DNA of 64,000 nucleotides from a virus (taxonomy: Duplodnaviria; Heunggongvirae; Uroviricota; Caudoviricetes). The translations under genes and the position numbers were made by a program. Within the stretch, counting starts at the first letter, position 1. Each line of letters begins with the position of its first letter. The notes beneath the pieces were generated by a model, which did not search any database, had not been told where the DNA came from, and was given only the letters and a program-made list of their open reading frames with translations. The stretch lies in the IMG/VR virus record IMGVR_UViG_2518285548_000002, positions 1-64,000 of that record, one strand, 5' to 3'. This document shows, piece after piece, positions 2,741 through 28,016 of the stretch.

Positions 2741-3534
2741 ACCTCAGGGATTTCGATTAGCAGTGTGTTGGTGGTGTACACCTTGTCGATCAGATCGGAT
2801 GTGAACACACTGCCCTTGAAAATGGAGTCCTCAGCGTGGGTAACTAGGAGGTATACCTTATCCGCGCCGACATCACGGAGAGCGTTAGAACTACGGATGA
2901 AGGTGTTACCGTAGGAGCAAAGGTCATCAACAATAATAGCCTTGAATCCTTTACCTTCGACAGAGCCAACCAATTGGAGTTTGTCAATCTGCCCTGTCTT
3001 GAAGTCACGCTCTTTAAACCCTACCAGTTGCTTAAACTTGGTGAAGTGCTTGCCATACCGCTTCTGAGCACCCTGATCGGGGAAGAATAGGTAATCCTTT
3101 TCAATGTCGAAGTTCAGGTCTGCCATGACTTCGTGTAGCAACCTGGTTGTAGGGTAGAGTGCTACACTACGATCAAGGAGAGCCATAGTCACGTCCGAGT
3201 GCGGCTCGATCACCGTGACATACTCAAAATTCATGCCGTTAATCATATTGGCTACATACTTTAAGGTAAACACAGAGTTCCCTTCTACCCTATCCATCCT
3301 GCTGTAAGGCATGTACGCGATAGTTAGGTTGGTTGTGAAATAATAGCTATCCAAGAATGATTTAACGAACAGGAGCTTCAGAAGATCGCTATCGTTCTCA
3401 TACTTGAGAGTTACTTCAACTTCTACCTCTCTTGATTTGAATTTAAGAAGTTCGATAATTTGTTCCCCGTCAACCAAAGTCTCCCCGTTAGGGAAGACTT
3501 TGAAGTTGAGGGGGGTACCGTTCAATTTAATCAT
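2704..3534 (-). CDS. ribose-phosphate pyrophosphokinase family protein (Prs / Adps-like)
   Basis: PRPP-synthetase-like fold motifs incl. IIVDDLCSYGNTF (cf. Prs DD..DTGGT PRPP-binding loop); 276 aa, shorter than canonical Prs. Confidence 0.8.
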   Translation of the reverse strand: MIKLNGTPLNFKVFPNGETLVDGEQIIELLKFKSREVEVEVTLKYENDSDLLKLLFVKSFLDSYYFTTNLTIAYMPYSRMDRVEGNSVFTLKYVANMINGMNFEYVTVIEPHSDVTMALLDRSVALYPTTRLLHEVMADLNFDIEKDYLFFPDQGAQKRYGKHFTKFKQLVGFKERDFKTGQIDKLQLVGSVEGKGFKAIIVDDLCSYGNTFIRSSNALRDVGADKVYLLVTHAEDSIFKGSVFTSDLIDKVYTTNTLLIEIPEVWESSIQVTEMI

Positions 3535-21908: not shown

Positions 21909-22187
21909 CTATCTGTTTTGAGGTTCACCTTTGTCAAATACCTTGCTTACTACTCCTAGTGCGAACCCTAAGGCGGCGGCTACAAGCCAACCCTGCTTAC
22001 CGTTTTCTTCATCTATTAGATACTCCAAAGCTCCTAAGTAAGCAAGAGCCACACCGATCAGAATGCAAGATATGAAGCTAGTTGCAGGATACGAGTGGGT
22101 GAATGCCGCTATTAAAATGAATATAATGATTCCAATTGCGATTGTCATGTTACACCTACTTACTCGAATATTTAGATAGCTCGCCAT
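21909..22187 (-). CDS. small membrane protein (2-3 TM)
   Basis: Hydrophobic segments; overlaps end of SLH protein gene. Confidence 0.5.
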   Translation of the reverse strand: MASYLNIRVSRCNMTIAIGIIIFILIAAFTHSYPATSFISCILIGVALAYLGALEYLIDEENGKQGWLVAAALGFALGVVSKVFDKGEPQNR

Positions 22188-22953
22188 TATCCTTTAGGTG
22201 GTTGTACAGGCGATGTAATATGGTCACGGCTTCAGCCCTGGTGACCTGATCGGCGGCTTCAAATTCTCCATTATATGTTGTCATGATACCGTGCTGTTGA
22301 AGGGATGCCACTTTCGGGGCAACAACTTCCGTGTAATCGTCAAAGATTTTCATAGTACCATTGTCTAAGTAGTCAATTACGAAAGGGAATACAGTGTTGG
22401 TCATATCGACTCCATACATGTATCTGTTGTCATCGTAGTTATCGGAGACTACGATCTTGAAGTCTTGCATCTTGGAGACTCTCTTATACGCTTCGTCTAA
22501 AGAAATTGGACTGTAAACTTCAGGCAGAAGGTTCACGACCCCCATTCTTGTAAGTTCTTTATCAGGATCGAACACCTTACCTTCCTTTGTATAGTAAGAG
22601 AAGTTCCCAGTATCCATCATTGGTGCCATGTCGTAGATCGCAGTGTACGCCCAGTAATTCTTCGGGACATCAATGAATTTGTCCACAACTAGCTCCTGTG
22701 ATCTGTACTTGTCAAATAGCTTGTGAGTCATCGAGATAAACTCGGCTTTGGTGACTTTCTCATCAGGCTTGAATGTCCCGTCCGAGTATCCCGTGACTAC
22801 TCCTTTCTCGGTCATGAAGCTGATGGAACTGATCGCCCACGAGTGTTGGGTCTCACTCACATCTTTGAAATTGGAGGTCTGTGCGCTTGCGGCAGTGGAG
22901 CCGATAAGCAGTGATGAAGCTAGTGTTATCGCTAGTACAATCCTCTTCTTCAT
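22156..22953 (-). CDS. secreted SLH-domain protein
   Basis: Signal peptide MKKRIVLAITLASSLLIGSTAASA; SLH motifs (..GYSDGTFKPDEKVTKAEF.., ..ADQVTRAEAVTIL..). Confidence 0.7.
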   Translation of the reverse strand: MKKRIVLAITLASSLLIGSTAASAQTSNFKDVSETQHSWAISSISFMTEKGVVTGYSDGTFKPDEKVTKAEFISMTHKLFDKYRSQELVVDKFIDVPKNYWAYTAIYDMAPMMDTGNFSYYTKEGKVFDPDKELTRMGVVNLLPEVYSPISLDEAYKRVSKMQDFKIVVSDNYDDNRYMYGVDMTNTVFPFVIDYLDNGTMKIFDDYTEVVAPKVASLQQHGIMTTYNGEFEAADQVTRAEAVTILHRLYNHLKDNGELSKYSSK

Positions 22954-23237
22954 AGTTACTACCTGCCTTTCTTATGATGTTTCCCCATATTAGCATAGAA
23001 CGATTTGATTCGTATATACGAGACAATACACGATAATCCACCTATAGGAACCTATAGCATCGTCCACTGCTAGGAGCGTACTACAGACTTCCATCGTCCC
23101 CCTTAAAACACAAATTCCCTTCTCATCAGAATCTAAGATATTTATTACATAATTTAACTACTATTTACAAATATATACATTTAAGGTAATATGTTAAGAA
23201 ATATCACGTTTTATTAATTTTCTGGAAGGGGATTTGT

Positions 23238-24524
23238 ATGGACGAAATTTTAACTTCCACAACATTGGGGGAACTGATAAAGAAGAAAAGAGAGGATTTA
23301 GGTATTAGTTTGTCTGAGGTTTCCAGAAAAACTGGCATTAGCAAGGGAGGGATTTCCAAGATTGAAAATGGTGAAACAAAAGGACCAGAGCTGGCTACTT
23401 TAAAGCCAATTGCCGATGTTTTAGAAATCCCTTATGAGGAAATAATTGAATATTGCATCAGGGCAGAATATCGTTATGATGTCTACGATGATCTCTTGGA
23501 AGAAGCCATAGAAATTGCTAACCCTTCTTTGATTGATAAAGTGGCAATCAAATTCCTAGAAAATATTAAGCATGAAACAGATTCAGCGCTGGAGCATTTG
23601 GAACGATTTGCAGATTCCAGCACAAACAACGATACAAAGGTAACGCTCTATAACACAATTGTGAAGTACTCTAGACAGCATGGGCTACCACATTACATAG
23701 CTAAAGGGTTATATCAAAAATACTTAATTGAGAGACAAAATTTAAAACGTTTGGAAGAATCCTTTAGAGATGGTGAAGAAATCACTCACTATGTTGATTT
23801 TTTATCTGATAATGAAAAGATAACATATTACTTTAAAATGGCTTTACATGCTCATAATACTAAAAAATATAATGAGTGTATCGAGTATTGTGAAGCAGGT
23901 CTTAGACTAGATGTTTCAAGCAACGAGTTGAAGGCTAGAGCTTATTTATCTATGATAAATTCCTATGGTTTCCTGAAAAATTACGATATGGCAGAGTACC
24001 ATCTGGACTTTTTAGAAAAATACGGATTTGAGTTCGTTTCCGATTCATGTAAAATTACTAGAGCTATTATACAAGGGAAAAGGAAACATTTCAGTATAGC
24101 TATTCCAGCACTAAGAAAATGCTATGAAGTGGTACAAAGTGACTTGAAGATACATGTAATCAATGAATTATTAGATTTGTATCTTCAGGAGAGTGATTCT
24201 ACTTCGATTGAAGAAATTTTTAACCTTGAGCCAGAATTTCTACCTCAAAATCCAACAACTCCTTATAAAAAAATAGCTATCGGTAAATACTTCCAGTATA
24301 AAGGGAATTATTTGACCAAAAATTGCATATTTAATGAAGGAGCAAGATCATATTTACTAAGCTTAAAGACATTTGGAGCTGTTTATGCAATTCAAGAACT
24401 TGCAGAATGCATGACCGAATTTTTAGCTTTGTTTACAGCAAATTCTAAATCAATGGATTTGGAATATGTTGTAAGACTAAAAGAGGTGTATACTGATATT
24501 GCAAACAAAAAGGAGGGGTTATAA
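23238..24524 (+). CDS. RNPP-family regulator (N-terminal XRE HTH + TPR-like helical repeats; AimR/NprR/PlcR-like)
   Basis: HTH LGISLSEVSRKTGISKGGISKIENGET; long helical C-terminal region; coupled downstream peptide gene. Confidence 0.7.
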   Translation: MDEILTSTTLGELIKKKREDLGISLSEVSRKTGISKGGISKIENGETKGPELATLKPIADVLEIPYEEIIEYCIRAEYRYDVYDDLLEEAIEIANPSLIDKVAIKFLENIKHETDSALEHLERFADSSTNNDTKVTLYNTIVKYSRQHGLPHYIAKGLYQKYLIERQNLKRLEESFRDGEEITHYVDFLSDNEKITYYFKMALHAHNTKKYNECIEYCEAGLRLDVSSNELKARAYLSMINSYGFLKNYDMAEYHLDFLEKYGFEFVSDSCKITRAIIQGKRKHFSIAIPALRKCYEVVQSDLKIHVINELLDLYLQESDSTSIEEIFNLEPEFLPQNPTTPYKKIAIGKYFQYKGNYLTKNCIFNEGARSYLLSLKTFGAVYAIQELAECMTEFLALFTANSKSMDLEYVVRLKEVYTDIANKKEGL

Positions 24525-24525
24525 T

Positions 24526-24669
24526 TGAGAAAAGCATATGGAATGTTGATGTTGTCGTTAGCCTTAGTGATGACTCTAGGCATTACAGCAAATACTGAAA
24601 CTGCAAGTGCTAAAGAATTAAATTCTCCGCAAAAAGCTCAATCTTATTTTGTTGATCCTGGTCATTAAT
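24526..24669 (+). CDS. secreted signalling pro-peptide candidate (47 aa, TTG start)
   Basis: AAGGAGGGG RBS; signal-peptide-like MLMLSLALVMTLGITA; starts 2 nt after regulator stop. Confidence 0.5.
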
Positions 24670-24696
24670 TCAATTGTTTTATCCTCAAATAAAAAA

Positions 24697-24730
24697 GAGA
24701 GCGCTAAATAAATAGCGTTCTTTTTTTTTG
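24697..24730 (+). terminator. rho-independent terminator
   Basis: AGCGCTA-loop-TAGCGTT followed by T9. Confidence 0.55.
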
Positions 24731-24972
24731 TGAAAATTTTATTGCTCATCATAAATATAGTTAGAACGTTTCCTCGAAAAAAAAATAGGGGGATTCCCCT
24801 AAACGGATGGTAAAATAATCAATAACAGGAAAAAGGAGGGATTTAGTTAATTGGTATCAGTTAAACAACGGGGTGTCCCAACGGTCGCTAAACTAATTGG
24901 AACACCCCGCTTTGATCAACTAAAAACGTTGTTCAGAAAAATTATATCATCGAATTAAAGGAGGAAAAAGCA

Positions 24973-25158
24973 TTATTTCACTGTCTGAAAATGATTTATT
25001 AAAGTCTTTTGAAGACCTCCAGCAAAAATTAGTAGAACTATATCGTACAGAAGGTTCATTTTTAAGTCCAACAGTGTTGCAAATAAGTCAACAACTAGAC
25101 GAATATATTGTCGCAATTCAGAAGATGGCAAAAAATCTAAATGAATGTCGAGACTAGA
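24973..25158 (+). CDS. Spo0E-like small protein, apparent AUU start
   Basis: SQQLDEYI matches Spo0E family signature; no ATG/GTG/TTG in frame after upstream TGA; GGGAGG RBS 7 nt before ATT. Confidence 0.4.
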
Positions 25159-25249
25159 ATAGACTGTACGGAAGCCCTTGCGATATATGAATAGCCGTTT
25201 TTAGCTATTCGAAGTCCGACAGACCTTTAAATTAGGAGGAAATGCACGA

Positions 25250-25810
25250 ATGAGAAAAAAACTAAAGATTGCAATTGTTACTACTTTATCATGTGTATCT
25301 CTTTTTTCTGCTGTAGCATATGCTGATTACGGCAAGAAATATCTGTTTACGGGAGGGTTACGGGCTTCAGATGTTAAGAAAATCAAGTATGTAATAGCTG
25401 GCGGAAGTTCTTCCTATCAAAGAAATGTAATGAAAGCTGGAGTTGAGGCTTGGAACGGAATTTCATCAAAGGTTAAGCTAACTGAGGGTAACTCTGGTGC
25501 AAAAGTGAGTGTGATACTCACAAATGCTGATAATGATGATTTATATGGGATTATGATGCCATTTAGCAATGGAGCTAGAGATTATGATCTAGATGAAATT
25601 TGGGACAACATAGATGTTATTGGATATGACAATACTCTATCGAGAATTGGGCTTAGCGAACAAAGGGGCGTATTTACTCACGAGATGGGACATGCATTGA
25701 GTTTAGCACATAATAACTCAGACTCAGATTTGATTATGCACCCATATGCATTAAGTACAGATATTCAGACAGATGATGAGAAAAATCTGAAGTTGAAGTG
25801 GGGGAAATAG
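25250..25810 (+). CDS. secreted zinc metalloprotease (HExxHxxxxxH, matrixin/snapalysin-like)
   Basis: Signal peptide; THEMGHALSLAHNN. Confidence 0.7.
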   Translation: MRKKLKIAIVTTLSCVSLFSAVAYADYGKKYLFTGGLRASDVKKIKYVIAGGSSSYQRNVMKAGVEAWNGISSKVKLTEGNSGAKVSVILTNADNDDLYGIMMPFSNGARDYDLDEIWDNIDVIGYDNTLSRIGLSEQRGVFTHEMGHALSLAHNNSDSDLIMHPYALSTDIQTDDEKNLKLKWGK

Positions 25811-25813
25811 TTA

Positions 25814-26401
25814 ATGAGCATGAAAAAACTGGCAGGAACAATTGTTTGTTCGGTTGCATTGGTTGCTGGTGGCTTTTACTTTTTGACGCCATCTAAAATT
25901 ATGAAGGTCGAGGCTAAAGTAGTAGGTTACAAAAATGTCGAAGCGTTAGAAAGGGGAGCAGATTATATTGTAGTAGGACATCTTGAAAGGGACTTCTCAG
26001 AATATGAGCCAACCTTTAAATATACTTCAGAGGGAAGAGTTGGAGAATTCTATACAAAAACTGATATCATCATTGATAAAACCCTCAAAGGAGACGCTGA
26101 TACAAAGGTTATTCCTGTCCTTCAAGCCGCCGCCTATGTAGAAAGCTCTTTTAAATATCAAGCCGATTTAGAAACAATAGAGGGTTTTACACCTATGGAA
26201 AAAGGAAAAGAGTACCTTCTGTTCTTAAAAAAGGCTCATGACGGTGAAAACTATAGTTTGTTAGGTGTATACCAAGGCAAATTTGATATTGATGAGTCTG
26301 ATAAGGTACAAGGGTTAGCATCAGAGAATAGCCACTATCAAAATTTGAGAGATGAAGTAGTGGAAAAATATAAAGATATTTTCGAAAAGTCAGTTCCATA
26401 A
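25814..26401 (+). CDS. secreted/membrane-anchored hypothetical protein
   Basis: N-terminal hydrophobic anchor. Confidence 0.6.
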   Translation: MSMKKLAGTIVCSVALVAGGFYFLTPSKIMKVEAKVVGYKNVEALERGADYIVVGHLERDFSEYEPTFKYTSEGRVGEFYTKTDIIIDKTLKGDADTKVIPVLQAAAYVESSFKYQADLETIEGFTPMEKGKEYLLFLKKAHDGENYSLLGVYQGKFDIDESDKVQGLASENSHYQNLRDEVVEKYKDIFEKSVP

Positions 26402-26425
26402 AGTTGAGACTTAGGGGGAAGTAAT

Positions 26426-26626
26426 ATGCAAGCTTGGGCTGATTCCGACCCTATTGATTGTACACAGCTTCAAAGGGACAAGAAAAAGGTTCAGAGAGCA
26501 ATTGACTTTGAAAAGTCACTGGAAGGTAAGCGTCTTACAGGAGAAAGTCCCCAAAACAAAAATCAAACAGGAGTGCTTTTGTATGACAGCGCTAAAGAAA
26601 CTTGCAACCAGTCCAATACGGGCTGA
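26426..26626 (+). CDS. possible small ORF (66 aa) with strong RBS, overlaps start of next regulator
   Basis: GGGGGAAG RBS before ATG. Confidence 0.3.
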   Translation: MQAWADSDPIDCTQLQRDKKKVQRAIDFEKSLEGKRLTGESPQNKNQTGVLLYDSAKETCNQSNTG

Positions 26627-28016
26627 GATCGAACACCATCTCAAATCATATAACTACACGCTTAGTAAGCTCAGTGAATTGACCAATATCAATACTGGTC
26701 ATCTAAGTGGGTATTTGAAGGGACATAAGTATAGGAAACTAACACTTGACCAATTGAATGCAATTGGACAAGTGTTTGAAAAACCTGATGGGTGGTTATA
26801 CGATTTATACGTTGAGGAATACTTCTATAGAGTAAAAATTACTCTCAGACGAGCGAAATCATTTCTGGTGCAATGTGCAGAATTAGGGAGATATGATTGT
26901 ATTCAGTTGGTAATTCCTCTACTCTTGGAACACCCTGATAAAATTAAAATTTTTTTTGGTGTAGCAGAACAGTTGTTTTACAAAGGGAGACAGAAGGAGT
27001 CCATCTTTTTTTACCAATTAGTGGTCGATAACGAAAAAAATATGTTCAAAGAACCAATCATCATGAGTCACTACCGGCTATTTCAACTCTCAGAGAGCAC
27101 AAACACCGAGGCACTATGGAAGGCTGTTCTTATTTTTGAGCCTGTTCGGAGGGAACTGTCTATATATTGCCAATTGGATGCGCTTTTACGACTAGGAAAT
27201 CATTGTTGTACATTGCGTAGATGGAAAGAGGTAGAGAAATTTGCGGACGAACTTTTAGAACTTACTAATTTGGTTTACAAAGATGAGCTGTCTAAGAAAA
27301 AGAGGGGAAATGGTGACGGAATAGAACTGCTTAATCTTGAGAGTCATTTGGTCGCTTACTATGGTCAGGGCTATCTTTTAAAAGCAGTATCTTTAGAGAA
27401 ACAAGGGCTGTATGAAGAAGCCAAGGAATTTGTTTCTGGTTATGCTGATCTGAGCTGGTTTGAACTACTTGACGAGTCTGGACAGGCAGAGGTAGCTAAA
27501 TATAAGAAATTAGCGTTGCTTAACATGTGTAGGCTAGATCTCCTCATGGGAGATACAAGTATACTTCCTGACTTTGTGGAATTCCTTGAATATAACCCAA
27601 CAGAATTATTGTTTGGTTTTATAACAATCGTGGAATCAGCCAACAAGTATGGATTTTCAATAGACATCATACTAGACAAGTTCTCGAAGGAGATTAACTA
27701 TTTTGATAATTACCATGATTCAGCCAATGTAGATCGACATCTACAATTTAGGTATCAGTTAGCTGTTTACCATTTAAAAAATAAGCGCCCTAACAGTGGT
27801 ATCAAAGAAATATTAAGATGCATGACTTTATCTACTGTATTGAATGGCAGTAAAGATTTCATACGATGCGTAGCACTATTTGAAGCGCATAGATACCAAG
27901 CATCAGCTCATCAGGAAATAGAATACAAAAAAAAATTGGAGGAGGTGATGCGTGATGAAAGATTAATTGGACGCTCCCAACCCCTCAGTAAGGAACGTCC
28001 AACAGTAAAACATTGA
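26583..28016 (+). CDS. HTH-domain regulator with long helical (TPR-like) C-terminal region
   Basis: Start trimmed to MTALKK (AGGAGTG RBS); HTH LSKLSELTNINTGHLSGYLKG. Confidence 0.6.
   Translation: MTALKKLATSPIRAEIEHHLKSYNYTLSKLSELTNINTGHLSGYLKGHKYRKLTLDQLNAIGQVFEKPDGWLYDLYVEEYFYRVKITLRRAKSFLVQCAELGRYDCIQLVIPLLLEHPDKIKIFFGVAEQLFYKGRQKESIFFYQLVVDNEKNMFKEPIIMSHYRLFQLSESTNTEALWKAVLIFEPVRRELSIYCQLDALLRLGNHCCTLRRWKEVEKFADELLELTNLVYKDELSKKKRGNGDGIELLNLESHLVAYYGQGYLLKAVSLEKQGLYEEAKEFVSGYADLSWFELLDESGQAEVAKYKKLALLNMCRLDLLMGDTSILPDFVEFLEYNPTELLFGFITIVESANKYGFSIDIILDKFSKEINYFDNYHDSANVDRHLQFRYQLAVYHLKNKRPNSGIKEILRCMTLSTVLNGSKDFIRCVALFEAHRYQASAHQEIEYKKKLEEVMRDERLIGRSQPLSKERPTVKH

What the first reader, a model, noticed from the sequence alone, without database searches (positions are those of the whole stretch)
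24973..25158. Spo0E-like ORF lacking any canonical start codon; GGGAGG RBS positioned for an AUU start
The frame encodes ..QISQQLDEYIVAIQKMAKNL.., matching the Spo0E-family aspartyl-phosphate phosphatase signature. Between the upstream in-frame TGA and this motif there is no ATG, GTG or TTG. A GGGAGG RBS sits 7 nt before ATT ATT. If real, it is a phage moron that could dephosphorylate Spo0A~P and modulate host sporulation. Its placement next to the RNPP pair is suggestive.
Basis: partly seen in the sequence, partly recalled or inferred. Interest (0 to 1): 0.55.

Follow-up and report, generated by a model that had tools for sequence, protein, structure and literature searches.

The report
Prophage Spo0E-like gene with AUU start
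A small anti-sporulation (Spo0E-type) phosphatase gene in a Brevibacillus laterosporus prophage has no normal start codon and most likely starts at AUU behind a strong ribosome-binding site. The gene, its quorum-sensing neighbours and this kind of weak start are all already known, so this is a tidy example rather than a discovery.

Summary
It matches the whole Pfam SpoOE-like model (E 7.7e-10). The in-frame upstream stop is TAA 24921, not TGA. No ATG/GTG/TTG occurs until GTG 25074, which would remove helix 1. The RBS is AAAGGAGG (24957-64), 7 nt before ATT ATT.

The gene is real. The DNA is identical in independent B. laterosporus assemblies, and dN/dS is 0.07-0.23 among 8 homologues. The predicted fold is a two-helix hairpin whose best PDB match is 2C0S.

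In five diverged lineages (79-87% aa identity) the SD-7 nt-ATT arrangement is kept. A sixth has ATA. The sequence upstream has frame-breaking indels and stops. An AUU start at 24972 is therefore the best reading (about 0.65), but it is unproven. CTG 24981 is equally conserved but lies 16 nt from the SD.

More distant homologues use ATG/GTG/TTG with weak or no SD, which suggests selection for low translation.

Context: this is a prophage, and an HTH-TPR receptor plus a secreted propeptide lie upstream in every locus examined. This architecture is published (Paenibacillus Alo13; Brevibacillus phage Sundance). RefSeq already annotates the gene, with three different non-canonical starts. Verdict: a new member of a known kind, of moderate interest.

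The parts
23238..24524 (+). RRNPP/Alo-like receptor, 428 aa (N-terminal HTH, TPR-like remainder)
   Evidence: Pfam HTH_3 E 1.9e-12. TPR_1 E 2e-4 is below its cut-off. Homologues at 43-79% identity lie upstream of the Spo0E-like gene in every locus examined.
24525..24668 (+). 47-aa propeptide (TTG start) with a hydrophobic N-terminus and a C-terminus ...SYFVDPGH
   Evidence: ORF. Counterparts in other loci end in the related motif [YF]x[VD][DN]PG[YH]. SD dG -12.7.
24700..24729 (+). Terminator-like hairpin (AGCGCTA..TAGCGTT) followed by a T-run, after the propeptide gene
   Evidence: Read from the sequence. The same stem was flagged by the scan. It is conserved in alignment A1.
24786..24801 (.). 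Imperfect palindrome TAGGGGGATTCCCCTA at the -35 position; candidate receptor operator (inferred)
   Evidence: It is shared only with L010, whose receptor is 79% identical, and differs in loci with receptors at 43-54% identity.
24808..24816 (+). Extended -10 promoter element TGGTAAAAT
   Evidence: ATGGTAAAAT is invariant in alignment A1 and was found upstream of the gene in 12 loci. The TSS, inferred at about 24823, is not mapped.
24832..24839 (+). 5'-proximal SD-like AAAGGAGG (SD1), not followed by a conserved ORF; possible mRNA stabiliser (inferred)
   Evidence: Conserved in A1 and A5. The ORFs behind it are inconsistent.
24870..24908 (+). Leader hairpin HP1 (GGGGTGTCCCAA / TTGGAACACCCC)
   Evidence: Helix 1 has 12 pairs, 5 of them with changes on both sides, and 81% of cells are paired.
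24914..24934 (+). Leader hairpin HP2 (GATCAAC / GTTGTTC), AU-rich with an A-rich loop
   Evidence: Helix 2 has 7 pairs, 2 of them with changes on both sides, and 93.5% of cells are paired.
24957..24964 (+). Shine-Dalgarno AAAGGAGG (SD2) serving the Spo0E-like ORF
   Evidence: Duplex dG -12.0 kcal/mol with the anti-SD. Conserved in 5 of 6 close lineages.
24972..24974 (+). Proposed AUU initiation codon (a second ATT lies at 24975 and a CTG at 24981)
   Evidence: 7 nt from GGAGG. The codon is ATT in 5 lineages and ATA in 1. RefSeq protein P0002 starts here.
24972..25157 (+). Spo0E-like ORF, 61 codons plus TAG; SQQLD at residues 39-43
25250..25810 (+). 186-aa secreted-type zinc metalloprotease (HEMGHALSLAH), probably co-transcribed
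   Evidence: Pfam Peptidase_M10 E 2.6e-5 and Astacin E 8.2e-5. It is 93-95% identical in the other cassettes. No terminator was found between it and the Spo0E-like ORF.
25814..26401 (+). 195-aa protein of unknown function that travels with the protease
   Evidence: 80-86% identity in the other cassettes.
26583..28016 (+). Second HTH-TPR protein (called as 477 aa in L001; the frame is open from 26454)
   Evidence: It follows the Spo0E-like gene directly in L008, L010 and SecTim467.

Best explanation
The ORF at 24972-25157 is a functional Spo0E-family gene carried by a Brevibacillus laterosporus prophage. It is the output gene of a receptor-propeptide (RRNPP/Alo-type) quorum-sensing module.

Transcription. 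The gene has its own promoter, with an extended -10 (TGGTAAAAT). This promoter probably depends on the upstream HTH-TPR receptor. The transcript carries a roughly 150-nt structured leader.

Translation. Initiation most likely occurs at AUU 24972. The start is placed by an extended Shine-Dalgarno sequence (AAAGGAGG) 7 nt upstream and is decoded by initiator tRNA as Met, giving a 61-aa protein. AUU is a poor start codon that IF3 discriminates against, so it holds output to roughly a tenth of what an AUG would give.

Function. The protein is a two-helix hairpin with the SQQLD signature and most likely dephosphorylates Spo0A~P. This would let the prophage delay host sporulation in a density-dependent way.

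Shown here: the gene is real, conserved and under purifying selection. It has no canonical start. The SD-ATT geometry is conserved. It sits in a prophage within a quorum-sensing module.

Inferred: actual use of AUU, the reduced yield, control by the receptor, and phosphatase activity.
For: - Family: the full-length Pfam SpoOE-like match; a profile of homologues hits PDB 2C0S (E 3.6e-4) and 2BZB (E 1.1e-3); the AF2 model has pLDDT 87 with helices 6-27 and 33-60; the top Foldseek PDB hit is 2C0S, TM 0.74; S39, Q40 and D43 are invariant in 24 homologues.
- Translated: dN/dS is 0.07-0.23 with dS 0.3-2.4. Upstream of GTG 25074, the window against L003 gives dN 0 and dS 0.28. Third-position variation dominates from codon 8 on.
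- No canonical start.
- SD-ATT: dG is -12.0 with a 7-nt spacer, like bona fide genes of the window. ATT is kept in window/L001, L002/3, L004, L005-7 and L010, and is ATA in L008/9.
- The region upstream of the SD is non-coding: a 1-nt indel in L004, an in-frame TAA at codon -8 in L003, and variation at all codon positions.
- Not an error: the DNA is identical in independent assemblies.
- Precedent: in S. aureus, Ribo-RET mapping showed an AUU start (cvfC1, 61 aa) and AUA starts (ccpN, infC, citZ), with extended SDs at the first three. Reporter fusions gave about 10% of the AUG level (PMC13009471).
- Module: the receptor is upstream in all loci. AloR13 directly activates the adjacent spo0E-like promoter, and the peptide switches it off (PMC7425212). 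Phage RRNPP-spo0E pairs, including Sundance, are described.
- Selection for weak initiation: homologues with ATG/GTG/TTG starts have SD dG between +0.1 and -7.9.
Against: - There is no direct evidence of translation or of the N-terminus.
- CTG 24981 (codon 4) is as conserved as the ATT. The second ATT (24975, 10-nt spacer) cannot be excluded.
- L008/L009 have ATA and only a weak SD (-6.3).
- More distant homologues start elsewhere: SecTim467 at an ATG five codons downstream of the ATT-equivalent, and Sundance at a GTG upstream. The N-terminal tail is therefore not constrained.
- RefSeq's own annotations of the identical DNA disagree (ATT 24954, ATT 24972, CTG 24981).
- In the window a TTG uORF (24851-24958) ends 13 nt before the ATT, so coupling could contribute here.
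- Phosphatase activity on Spo0A~P and receptor control are taken by analogy only.
- The anti-SD sequence used for the dG values is the Bacillales consensus recalled from general knowledge, not read from this genome.
Confidence: 0.65

Rival explanations
1. Translation starts at CTG 24981 (a 58-aa product, as annotated in GCA_000374385.1) or at the second ATT 24975, rather than at ATT 24972.
For: CTG is invariant at codon 4 in all six close lineages, including L008, which lacks ATT. RefSeq protein P0003 uses it. SecTim467's ATG start gives a similarly short N-terminus. ATT 24975 lies 10 nt from the SD, still within the usable range.
Against: CTG lies 16 nt from GGAGG, outside the usual 5-13 nt window (the spacing rule is from general knowledge of Bacillus initiation). 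The second codon is ATT only in the window and is AAT or AGT elsewhere. An invariant CTG can simply encode a conserved Leu.
Confidence: 0.15
2. The ORF is expressed through the upstream leader ORF. This could work by termination-reinitiation coupling at the TTG uORF 24851-24958, whose TAA overlaps SD2, by frameshifting, or as an N-terminally extended fusion such as the 100-aa call in L010.
For: In the window, SD1 is followed at 11 nt by a TTG that opens a 35-codon ORF ending 13 nt before the ATT. In L010 and L022 the leader frame is fused in frame with the Spo0E domain. The frame across hairpin HP1 is open in all leaders.
Against: Start codons, stops and frame relative to Spo0E are inconsistent among leaders. 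There is no canonical start in L014 and L017, and none near SD1 in L003, L004 or L016. The stop lies 28-73 nt before the Spo0E start in most. The hairpin loop sequences fall into unrelated groups while the stems co-vary, which fits an RNA structure rather than a peptide.
Confidence: 0.05
3. The ORF is not translated as a full-length protein. It is either a decaying pseudogene or an RNA-only output (AimX-like), or only the 27-aa GTG 25074 remnant is made.
For: There is no canonical start. The ORF listing reports only the 27-aa GTG ORF. Degenerate second Spo0E-like copies exist in related cassettes. L014 has AAG at the start position.
Against: Purifying selection is strong across the whole domain, including the part upstream of the GTG. 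The ORF is intact in all lineages. GTG 25074 has no SD and is GTA in 2 of 6 lineages. A 27-aa product would lack helix 1.
Confidence: 0.04
4. Translation starts at ATT 24954, giving the 67-aa product MKGGKS... as annotated in GCA_036213725.1.
For: RefSeq protein P0001 is called this way.
Against: This codon lies upstream of the SD, which it would read as Lys-Gly-Gly. It has no SD of its own (dG -2.5). The position is ATC, TCT or TCA in other lineages, and the frame is broken in L004.
Confidence: 0.03

Closest known systems
Spo0E family aspartyl-phosphate phosphatases (Pfam PF09388; B. subtilis Spo0E/YisI/YnzD; B. anthracis proteins solved as PDB 2BZB and 2C0S)
   Same: Small size, a two-helix antiparallel hairpin, and the SQxLD signature with its invariant Asp at the start of helix 2. 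The Pfam match covers the whole model, and 2C0S is the best structural match.
   Different: The signature reads SQQLD rather than SQELD. The gene is carried by a prophage inside a quorum-sensing cassette. It has no canonical start codon. Activity was not tested.
Alo13 system of Paenibacillus polymyxa (AloR13-AloP13-spo0E-like; Voichek et al. 2020, PMC7425212)
   Same: The gene order is the same: an HTH-TPR receptor, a short secreted propeptide, then a spo0E-like gene with its own promoter directly downstream. In Alo13 the receptor activates that promoter and the mature peptide turns it off. That paper reports Alo receptors in Brevibacillus.
   Different: This copy is on a prophage. The propeptide ends in ...YFVDPGH rather than SHGRGG. 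A protease, a 195-aa gene and a second HTH-TPR gene follow. Homology of the receptor to AloR was not tested here.
Phage and prophage RRNPP systems next to spo0E (Bernard et al., bioRxiv 10.1101/2021.07.15.452460 and MBE 2023 PMC10075063), including Brevibacillus phage Sundance; SecTim467 gp70 (PMC4909266)
   Same: These are direct homologues. The Sundance receptor is 45% identical and its Spo0E-like protein 61%. The SecTim467 receptor is 44% identical and its Spo0E-like protein 67%. Sundance has the same promoter -10, SD1 and HP1 leader.
   Different: The phage copies start with GTG (Sundance) or ATG (SecTim467) and have essentially no SD (dG -1.4), whereas the window lineage has a strong SD plus ATT. 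In what I read of those papers, nothing on start codons or the leader turned up.
Non-canonical AUU/AUA starts with extended SD in Firmicutes (S. aureus cvfC1, ccpN, infC, citZ; PMC13009471) and E. coli infC and pcnB
   Same: A near-cognate AUU follows an extended SD at a short spacing and is conserved among relatives. cvfC1 is also a small regulator of 61 aa. The expected effect is about 10-fold lower, IF3-sensitive initiation.
   Different: There is no initiation-site mapping for this gene. Conservation of ATT is limited to one sub-lineage, and relatives reach a weak initiation region in a different way (canonical codon without an SD).
STAB-SD of B. thuringiensis cry3A (a 5'-UTR Shine-Dalgarno that stabilises mRNA; recalled from Agaisse & Lereclus 1996, not checked here)
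   Same: A perfect SD-like AAAGGAGG lies near the predicted 5' end, about 130 nt upstream of the real start, and no conserved ORF follows it.
   Different: The function is purely inferred. The TSS and mRNA half-life are unknown. In some loci a 3-5-codon mini-ORF follows it.

Membership tests
Spo0E family (PF09388) | Significant match to the family profile over the whole domain | tested here: met
   E 7.7e-10, 39 bits against a cut-off of 23, model positions 1-42 of 42. A family profile hits 2C0S and 2BZB.
Spo0E family (PF09388) | Signature motif SQ(E)LD with the conserved Asp (motif definition from general knowledge of the family) | tested here: met
   S39-Q40-Q41-L42-D43. S39, Q40 and D43 are invariant in 24 homologues. 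The third residue is Q rather than E.
Spo0E family (PF09388) | Small antiparallel two-helix hairpin fold | tested here: met
   The AF2 model has pLDDT 87 and helices 6-27 and 33-60. The top Foldseek PDB hit is 2C0S (TM 0.74, rmsd 1.9). Its E-value of 0.26 is not significant, as expected for so small a fold.
Spo0E family (PF09388) | Dephosphorylates Spo0A~P and delays sporulation | not testable with these tools
   Requires biochemistry or genetics.
Genes initiated at a non-canonical AUU with an extended SD | No ATG/GTG/TTG between the in-frame stop and the start of the conserved domain | tested here: met
   The first canonical codon is GTG 25074, which lies inside the domain.
Genes initiated at a non-canonical AUU with an extended SD | Strong or extended SD at the proper spacing from the near-cognate codon | tested here: met
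   AAAGGAGG, dG -12.0, 7-nt spacer.
Genes initiated at a non-canonical AUU with an extended SD | The non-canonical codon is conserved among homologues | tested here: inconclusive
   ATT in 5 close lineages and ATA in 1. Homologues at 43-67% identity use ATG/GTG/TTG at other positions, and one has AAG.
Genes initiated at a non-canonical AUU with an extended SD | Initiation mapped experimentally (Ribo-RET, N-terminal peptide, reporter mutants) | not testable with these tools
   My paper searches surfaced no such data for B. laterosporus.
RRNPP/Alo-type quorum-sensing module | Cytoplasmic receptor with an HTH DNA-binding domain and a TPR-type peptide-binding domain | tested here: inconclusive
   The HTH_3 match is clear (E 1.9e-12). 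TPR_1 and TPR_2 are only sub-threshold (E 2e-4 and 0.08). No structure was predicted.
RRNPP/Alo-type quorum-sensing module | Short secreted propeptide gene adjacent to the receptor | tested here: met
   A 47-aa ORF lies directly downstream and has a strong SD. Counterparts in 7 loci have a hydrophobic N-terminus and a related C-terminal ...PG[YH] motif. The signal peptide was judged by eye only.
RRNPP/Alo-type quorum-sensing module | The receptor controls the adjacent target promoter in response to the peptide | not testable with these tools
   By analogy with AloR13. A candidate operator palindrome lies at 24786-24801.
Prophage accessory ('moron') gene | Located within a phage genome, with its own promoter and bounded by a terminator | tested here: met
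   Phage genes lie on both sides. A terminator-like hairpin lies upstream and a conserved extended -10 is present. However, the gene belongs to a conserved multi-gene module and is probably co-transcribed with downstream genes.

The most novel reading that the evidence does not exclude
In this family of Brevibacillus (pro)phage Spo0E-like genes, weak translation initiation is itself the selected trait. Different lineages reach it in interchangeable ways, either a strong SD with AUU or AUA, or a canonical codon with little or no SD. All of them sit behind a conserved, roughly 150-nt structured leader (a 5' SD-like element plus two co-varying hairpins) that matches no Rfam family. The AUU start would make phosphatase output sensitive to IF3 and ribosome status. 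The phage would then combine cell density (through the receptor, at transcription) with host physiological state (at translation) when deciding whether to hold back host sporulation.
Probability: 0.2. Interest if true: 0.6.

Novelty: new member of a known kind. Interest (0 to 1): 0.38.

Why it matters
If the AUU start is real, this adds a phage-borne sporulation regulator to the short list of Firmicute genes that are throttled by a non-canonical start codon.

It also explains the inconsistent annotation. Identical DNA is called as 58, 61 and 67 aa. Homologues whose own DNA differs upstream are called as 77 and 100 aa by extension to upstream canonical start codons. The comparison points to one consistent start that annotators could adopt.

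The comparative pattern (a strong SD with a weak codon, or a weak SD with a strong codon) gives a testable argument that prophages keep their Spo0E-like output low.

The biological idea, that phages use quorum sensing to manipulate host sporulation through Spo0E, is already published. This window is a well-resolved example of it, not a new concept.

Tried and rejected
- Megablast of 23000-27000 against the phage collection found no match. A protein-mode search later found SecTim467 and Sundance.
- Two genome-contig scans (protein, then a DNA pattern) returned nothing. The same DNA pattern in viral contigs also found nothing. Homologous DNA came instead from the look-up of encoding contigs and from profile scans of the viral and metagenome collections.
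- An Rfam scan of 24500-25300 at a permissive E-value gave only chance-level hits, none near a gathering score.
- Single-sequence phmmer against PDB missed the Spo0E structures. The profile found them.
- My first fold_alignment used wrong coordinates that cut off the 5' arm and was uninformative. It was redone with correct coordinates.
- The second Spo0E-like copies in L002-L005 are degenerate, have TTG starts, and say nothing about the ATT.
- A look-up of P0002 found no record.
- Rejected: GTG 25074 as the start, ATT 24954 as the start, pseudogene, sequencing error, and a conserved leader peptide or fusion. Reasons are given under the rival explanations.
- The long-range SD1-CCUCC (25018-22) pairing in the MFE fold was not pursued. 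The fold's z-score is only -2.35, and that pairing was not tested for covariation.

Full report
**What is in the sequence**

On the + strand the frame beginning at 24972 reads IISLSENDLLKSFEDLQQKLVELYRTEGSFLSPTVLQISQQLDEYIVAIQKMAKNLNECRD and stops at TAG 25155-25157.

- The translation matches Pfam SpoOE-like (PF09388) over the complete model (positions 1-42 on residues 9-51), with E 7.7e-10 and 39 bits against a cut-off of 23.
- The nearest in-frame upstream stop is TAA 24921-24923, not TGA.
- From there to 25073 (50 codons) there is no ATG, GTG or TTG.
- The first canonical codon is GTG 25074. The ORF listing reports it as a 27-aa ORF. A start there would remove the whole first helix.
- The RBS is AAAGGAGG at 24957-24964, not GGGAGG. 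GGAGG ends 7 nt before ATT 24972. A second ATT follows at 24975 and a CTG at 24981.

**Is it real and translated?**

The organism is Brevibacillus laterosporus. The leader and ORF are base-for-base identical in two independent assemblies, GCA_000374385.1 and GCA_036213725.1. The second differs only by a 4-nt indel in the upstream terminator loop. The 67-aa version of the product is on four contigs. This rules out a sequencing or assembly error.

Selection on the reading frame is clear:

- Eight homologues (six prophage lineages plus phages SecTim467 and Sundance) give pairwise dN/dS of 0.07-0.23 for most pairs, with dS from 0.3 to above 2.
- The part of the ORF upstream of GTG 25074 is also under purifying selection. 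The mean ratio is 0.29, and the window against L003 gives dN 0 and dS 0.28.
- A codon-by-codon table shows third-position-dominated variation from codon 8 onward.

The structure agrees with the family assignment:

- An AlphaFold model (pLDDT 87) is a hairpin of two helices, residues 6-27 and 33-60.
- Its best PDB match is 2C0S, a B. anthracis aspartyl-phosphate phosphatase, with TM 0.74. The E-value is not significant, as expected for so small a fold.
- A profile of 24 homologues hits 2C0S (E 3.6e-4) and 2BZB (E 1.1e-3) by sequence.
- S39, Q40 and D43 of the SQQLD signature are invariant.

Pseudogene and RNA-only readings are therefore rejected.

**Where does translation start?**

Six diverged lineages (79-87% aa identity to the window, dS 0.3-1.1) can be compared codon by codon.

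- Codon 1 is ATT in five lineages and ATA in one (L008/L009).
- Codon 4 is CTG in all six.
- No other start-like codon is shared. TTG occurs at codon 3 in only two lineages. TTG occurs at codon 10 in five, but the window has TTA there. Codon 35 is GTG in four and GTA in two.
- Upstream of codon 0 the sequences vary at all codon positions. L004 has a 1-nt insertion that breaks the frame, and L003 has an in-frame TAA at codon -8. That region is therefore non-coding.

The SD before the ATT pairs with the anti-SD at -12.0 to -12.6 kcal/mol in four lineages and at -8.6 in L004, with a 7-nt GGAGG-to-ATT spacer. This is the same range as ordinary genes in the window, which mostly fall between -8 and -16. 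CTG is 16 nt from the SD. ATT 24954 lies upstream of the SD and has none of its own (-2.5).

ATT 24972 is thus the best-placed conserved candidate. ATT 24975 and CTG 24981 cannot be excluded without experiments.

RefSeq annotation of the identical DNA uses all three non-canonical options: ATT 24954 gives 67 aa, ATT 24972 gives 61 aa and CTG 24981 gives 58 aa. For homologues, callers extended to far-upstream ATG or TTG codons, giving 77 and 100 aa. The absence of a canonical start is therefore already implicit in public annotation, but unresolved.

**Precedent for the mechanism**

Ribo-RET mapping in Staphylococcus aureus showed initiation at AUU (cvfC1, also 61 aa) and at AUA (ccpN, infC, citZ). 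An extended SD directs the first three sites. Reporter fusions gave about 10% of the AUG level. The authors discuss IF3 discrimination, and E. coli infC and pcnB as classical AUU cases (PMC13009471). The geometry here matches that pattern.

**A family-wide pattern**

More distant homologues came from phages and from viral and metagenome contigs. They use canonical codons at other positions but have weak or absent SDs:

| Homologue | Start codon | SD dG (kcal/mol) |
|---|---|---|
| SecTim467 | ATG | -1.4 |
| Sundance | GTG | -1.4 |
| L016-L018 | ATG | -7.9 |
| L019 | ATG | -5.6 |
| L020 | ATG | +0.1 |
| L021 | GTG | -4.8 |
| L022 | TTG | -2.1 |

L014 has AAG where its relatives have ATG or GTG, and it has no canonical start at all. 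So each lineage pairs either a strong SD with a weak codon or a canonical codon with a weak SD. This suggests selection for low output. The sample is small (about 14 lineages), the start positions of the distant homologues are themselves unverified, and the anti-SD used is the Bacillales consensus from general knowledge.

**Context**

The window is a prophage. Terminase, portal, major head protein and a 2737-aa ORF in the structural-gene block (by size a possible tape-measure protein, not scanned) lie downstream on the + strand. Helicase and a nicotinamide phosphoribosyltransferase lie upstream on the - strand.

Immediately upstream of the Spo0E-like gene are a 428-aa HTH protein (HTH_3 E 1.9e-12, with sub-threshold TPR) and a 47-aa propeptide. 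Homologues of the receptor (43-79% identity) precede the Spo0E-like gene in every locus examined, including both phages and the IMG/VR contigs.

This architecture is known:

- In Paenibacillus polymyxa, AloR13 directly activates the adjacent spo0E-like promoter and the mature peptide shuts it off. Alo receptors were reported in Brevibacillus (PMC7425212).
- Phage and prophage RRNPP systems next to spo0E, including Brevibacillus phage Sundance, were described as candidate sporulation-hijacking modules.
- SecTim467 gp70 was noted as a Spo0E homologue.

By analogy, the free receptor would activate the promoter, and accumulated peptide would switch it off. This step is inferred.

**The leader**

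Between the propeptide terminator and the ORF lie these elements:

- an invariant extended -10 (TGGTAAAAT, 24808-16);
- a 5'-proximal SD-like AAAGGAGG (24832-39) with no conserved ORF behind it;
- a GC-rich hairpin (24870-24908);
- an AU-rich hairpin (24914-24934).

On an 11-sequence alignment, 85.6% of cells are paired against 34-48% for slid controls. Seven of 19 pairs show changes on both sides, and 0 of 500 shuffles reach the covariation score. No Rfam family matches.

The frame across the first hairpin is open in all leaders. However, its starts, stops and phase relative to Spo0E are inconsistent. A conserved leader peptide or fusion protein is therefore unlikely.

**Verdict**

Its components are all precedented: the Spo0E family, the phage quorum-sensing-spo0E module, and AUU starts with an extended SD. 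The gene is already annotated, though inconsistently.

What this analysis adds is the conserved SD-ATT unit, the apparent trade-off between SD strength and start codon, and the structured leader. I rate it a new member of a known kind, with interest about 0.38.

Noticed in passing
window 24808-24971 (also L003, L004, L006, L008, L010, L012, L014, L016-L020, L022): A conserved leader of about 150 nt precedes the Spo0E-like ORF. It has an extended -10, a 5'-proximal SD-like AAAGGAGG with no conserved ORF behind it, and two hairpins with compensatory changes. On the alignment 85.6% of cells are paired against 34-48% in slid controls. No Rfam family matches. It may be an unrecognised cis-regulatory or stabilising RNA element.
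   Followed up: partly
window 24525-24668; L002 2557-2697; L006 2628-2765; L008 2635-2760; L010 2650-2790; L012 3045-3191; L011 about 3170-3310: The propeptides downstream of the receptors all end in a related C-terminal motif: YFVDPGH, YFVDPGY, YVVDPGY, YVDNPQG, VYDPGH, YTDNPGY and YTDDPGY. These look like pherotype variants of one peptide family. In phage SecTim467 the propeptide ORF is unannotated and overlaps the annotated end of the receptor gene.
   Followed up: partly
window 24786-24801: The imperfect palindrome TAGGGGGATTCCCCTA sits where a -35 element would be. It is shared only with L010, whose receptor is 79% identical, and is replaced by other sequences where receptors are 43-54% identical. 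It is a candidate receptor-specific operator. The scan reads it as a minus-strand terminator-like site.
   Followed up: no
window 25250-26401: A secreted-type zinc metalloprotease (HEMGHALSLAH) and a 195-aa protein follow the Spo0E-like gene with no terminator between them. They are 93-95% and 80-86% identical between cassettes whose receptors are only about 50% identical, so the cassette is mosaic. The protease could process the propeptide, but this was not tested.
   Followed up: no
window 26454-28016; L008 3327-4757; L010 3577-5010; L011 3802-5226: A second large HTH-TPR protein (477-520 aa) lies downstream. In L008, L010 and SecTim467 it follows the Spo0E-like gene directly. In L002-L007 only a C-terminal remnant survives, and in most of these loci a degenerate second Spo0E-like copy follows it. 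This suggests tandem modules that are decaying.
   Followed up: partly
L014 2474-2476 (IMG/VR UViG_2911860687_000005): This homologue has AAG at the position where L013 and L020 have ATG and Sundance has GTG. Its open frame contains no canonical start and no SD. It is either a dead copy or a still more extreme initiation site.
   Followed up: no
window 24993-25073 versus 25074-25124: Synonymous divergence is much lower in the 5' half of the ORF (dS 0.13-0.48) than in the 3' half (0.46 to saturated). For example, GAAGACCTCCAGCAAAAATTAGT is almost invariant. This points to nucleotide-level constraint near the initiation region or to recent recombination. The CCUCC at 25018-22 could pair with an SD.
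   Followed up: no
window 21909-22953 (- strand): A 265-aa protein with an SLH domain and an overlapping 92-aa membrane-like ORF sit where related loci carry an Amidase_2 (plus SLH) endolysin with a small ORF. The quorum-sensing cassette therefore seems to abut a lysis-type module.
   Followed up: no
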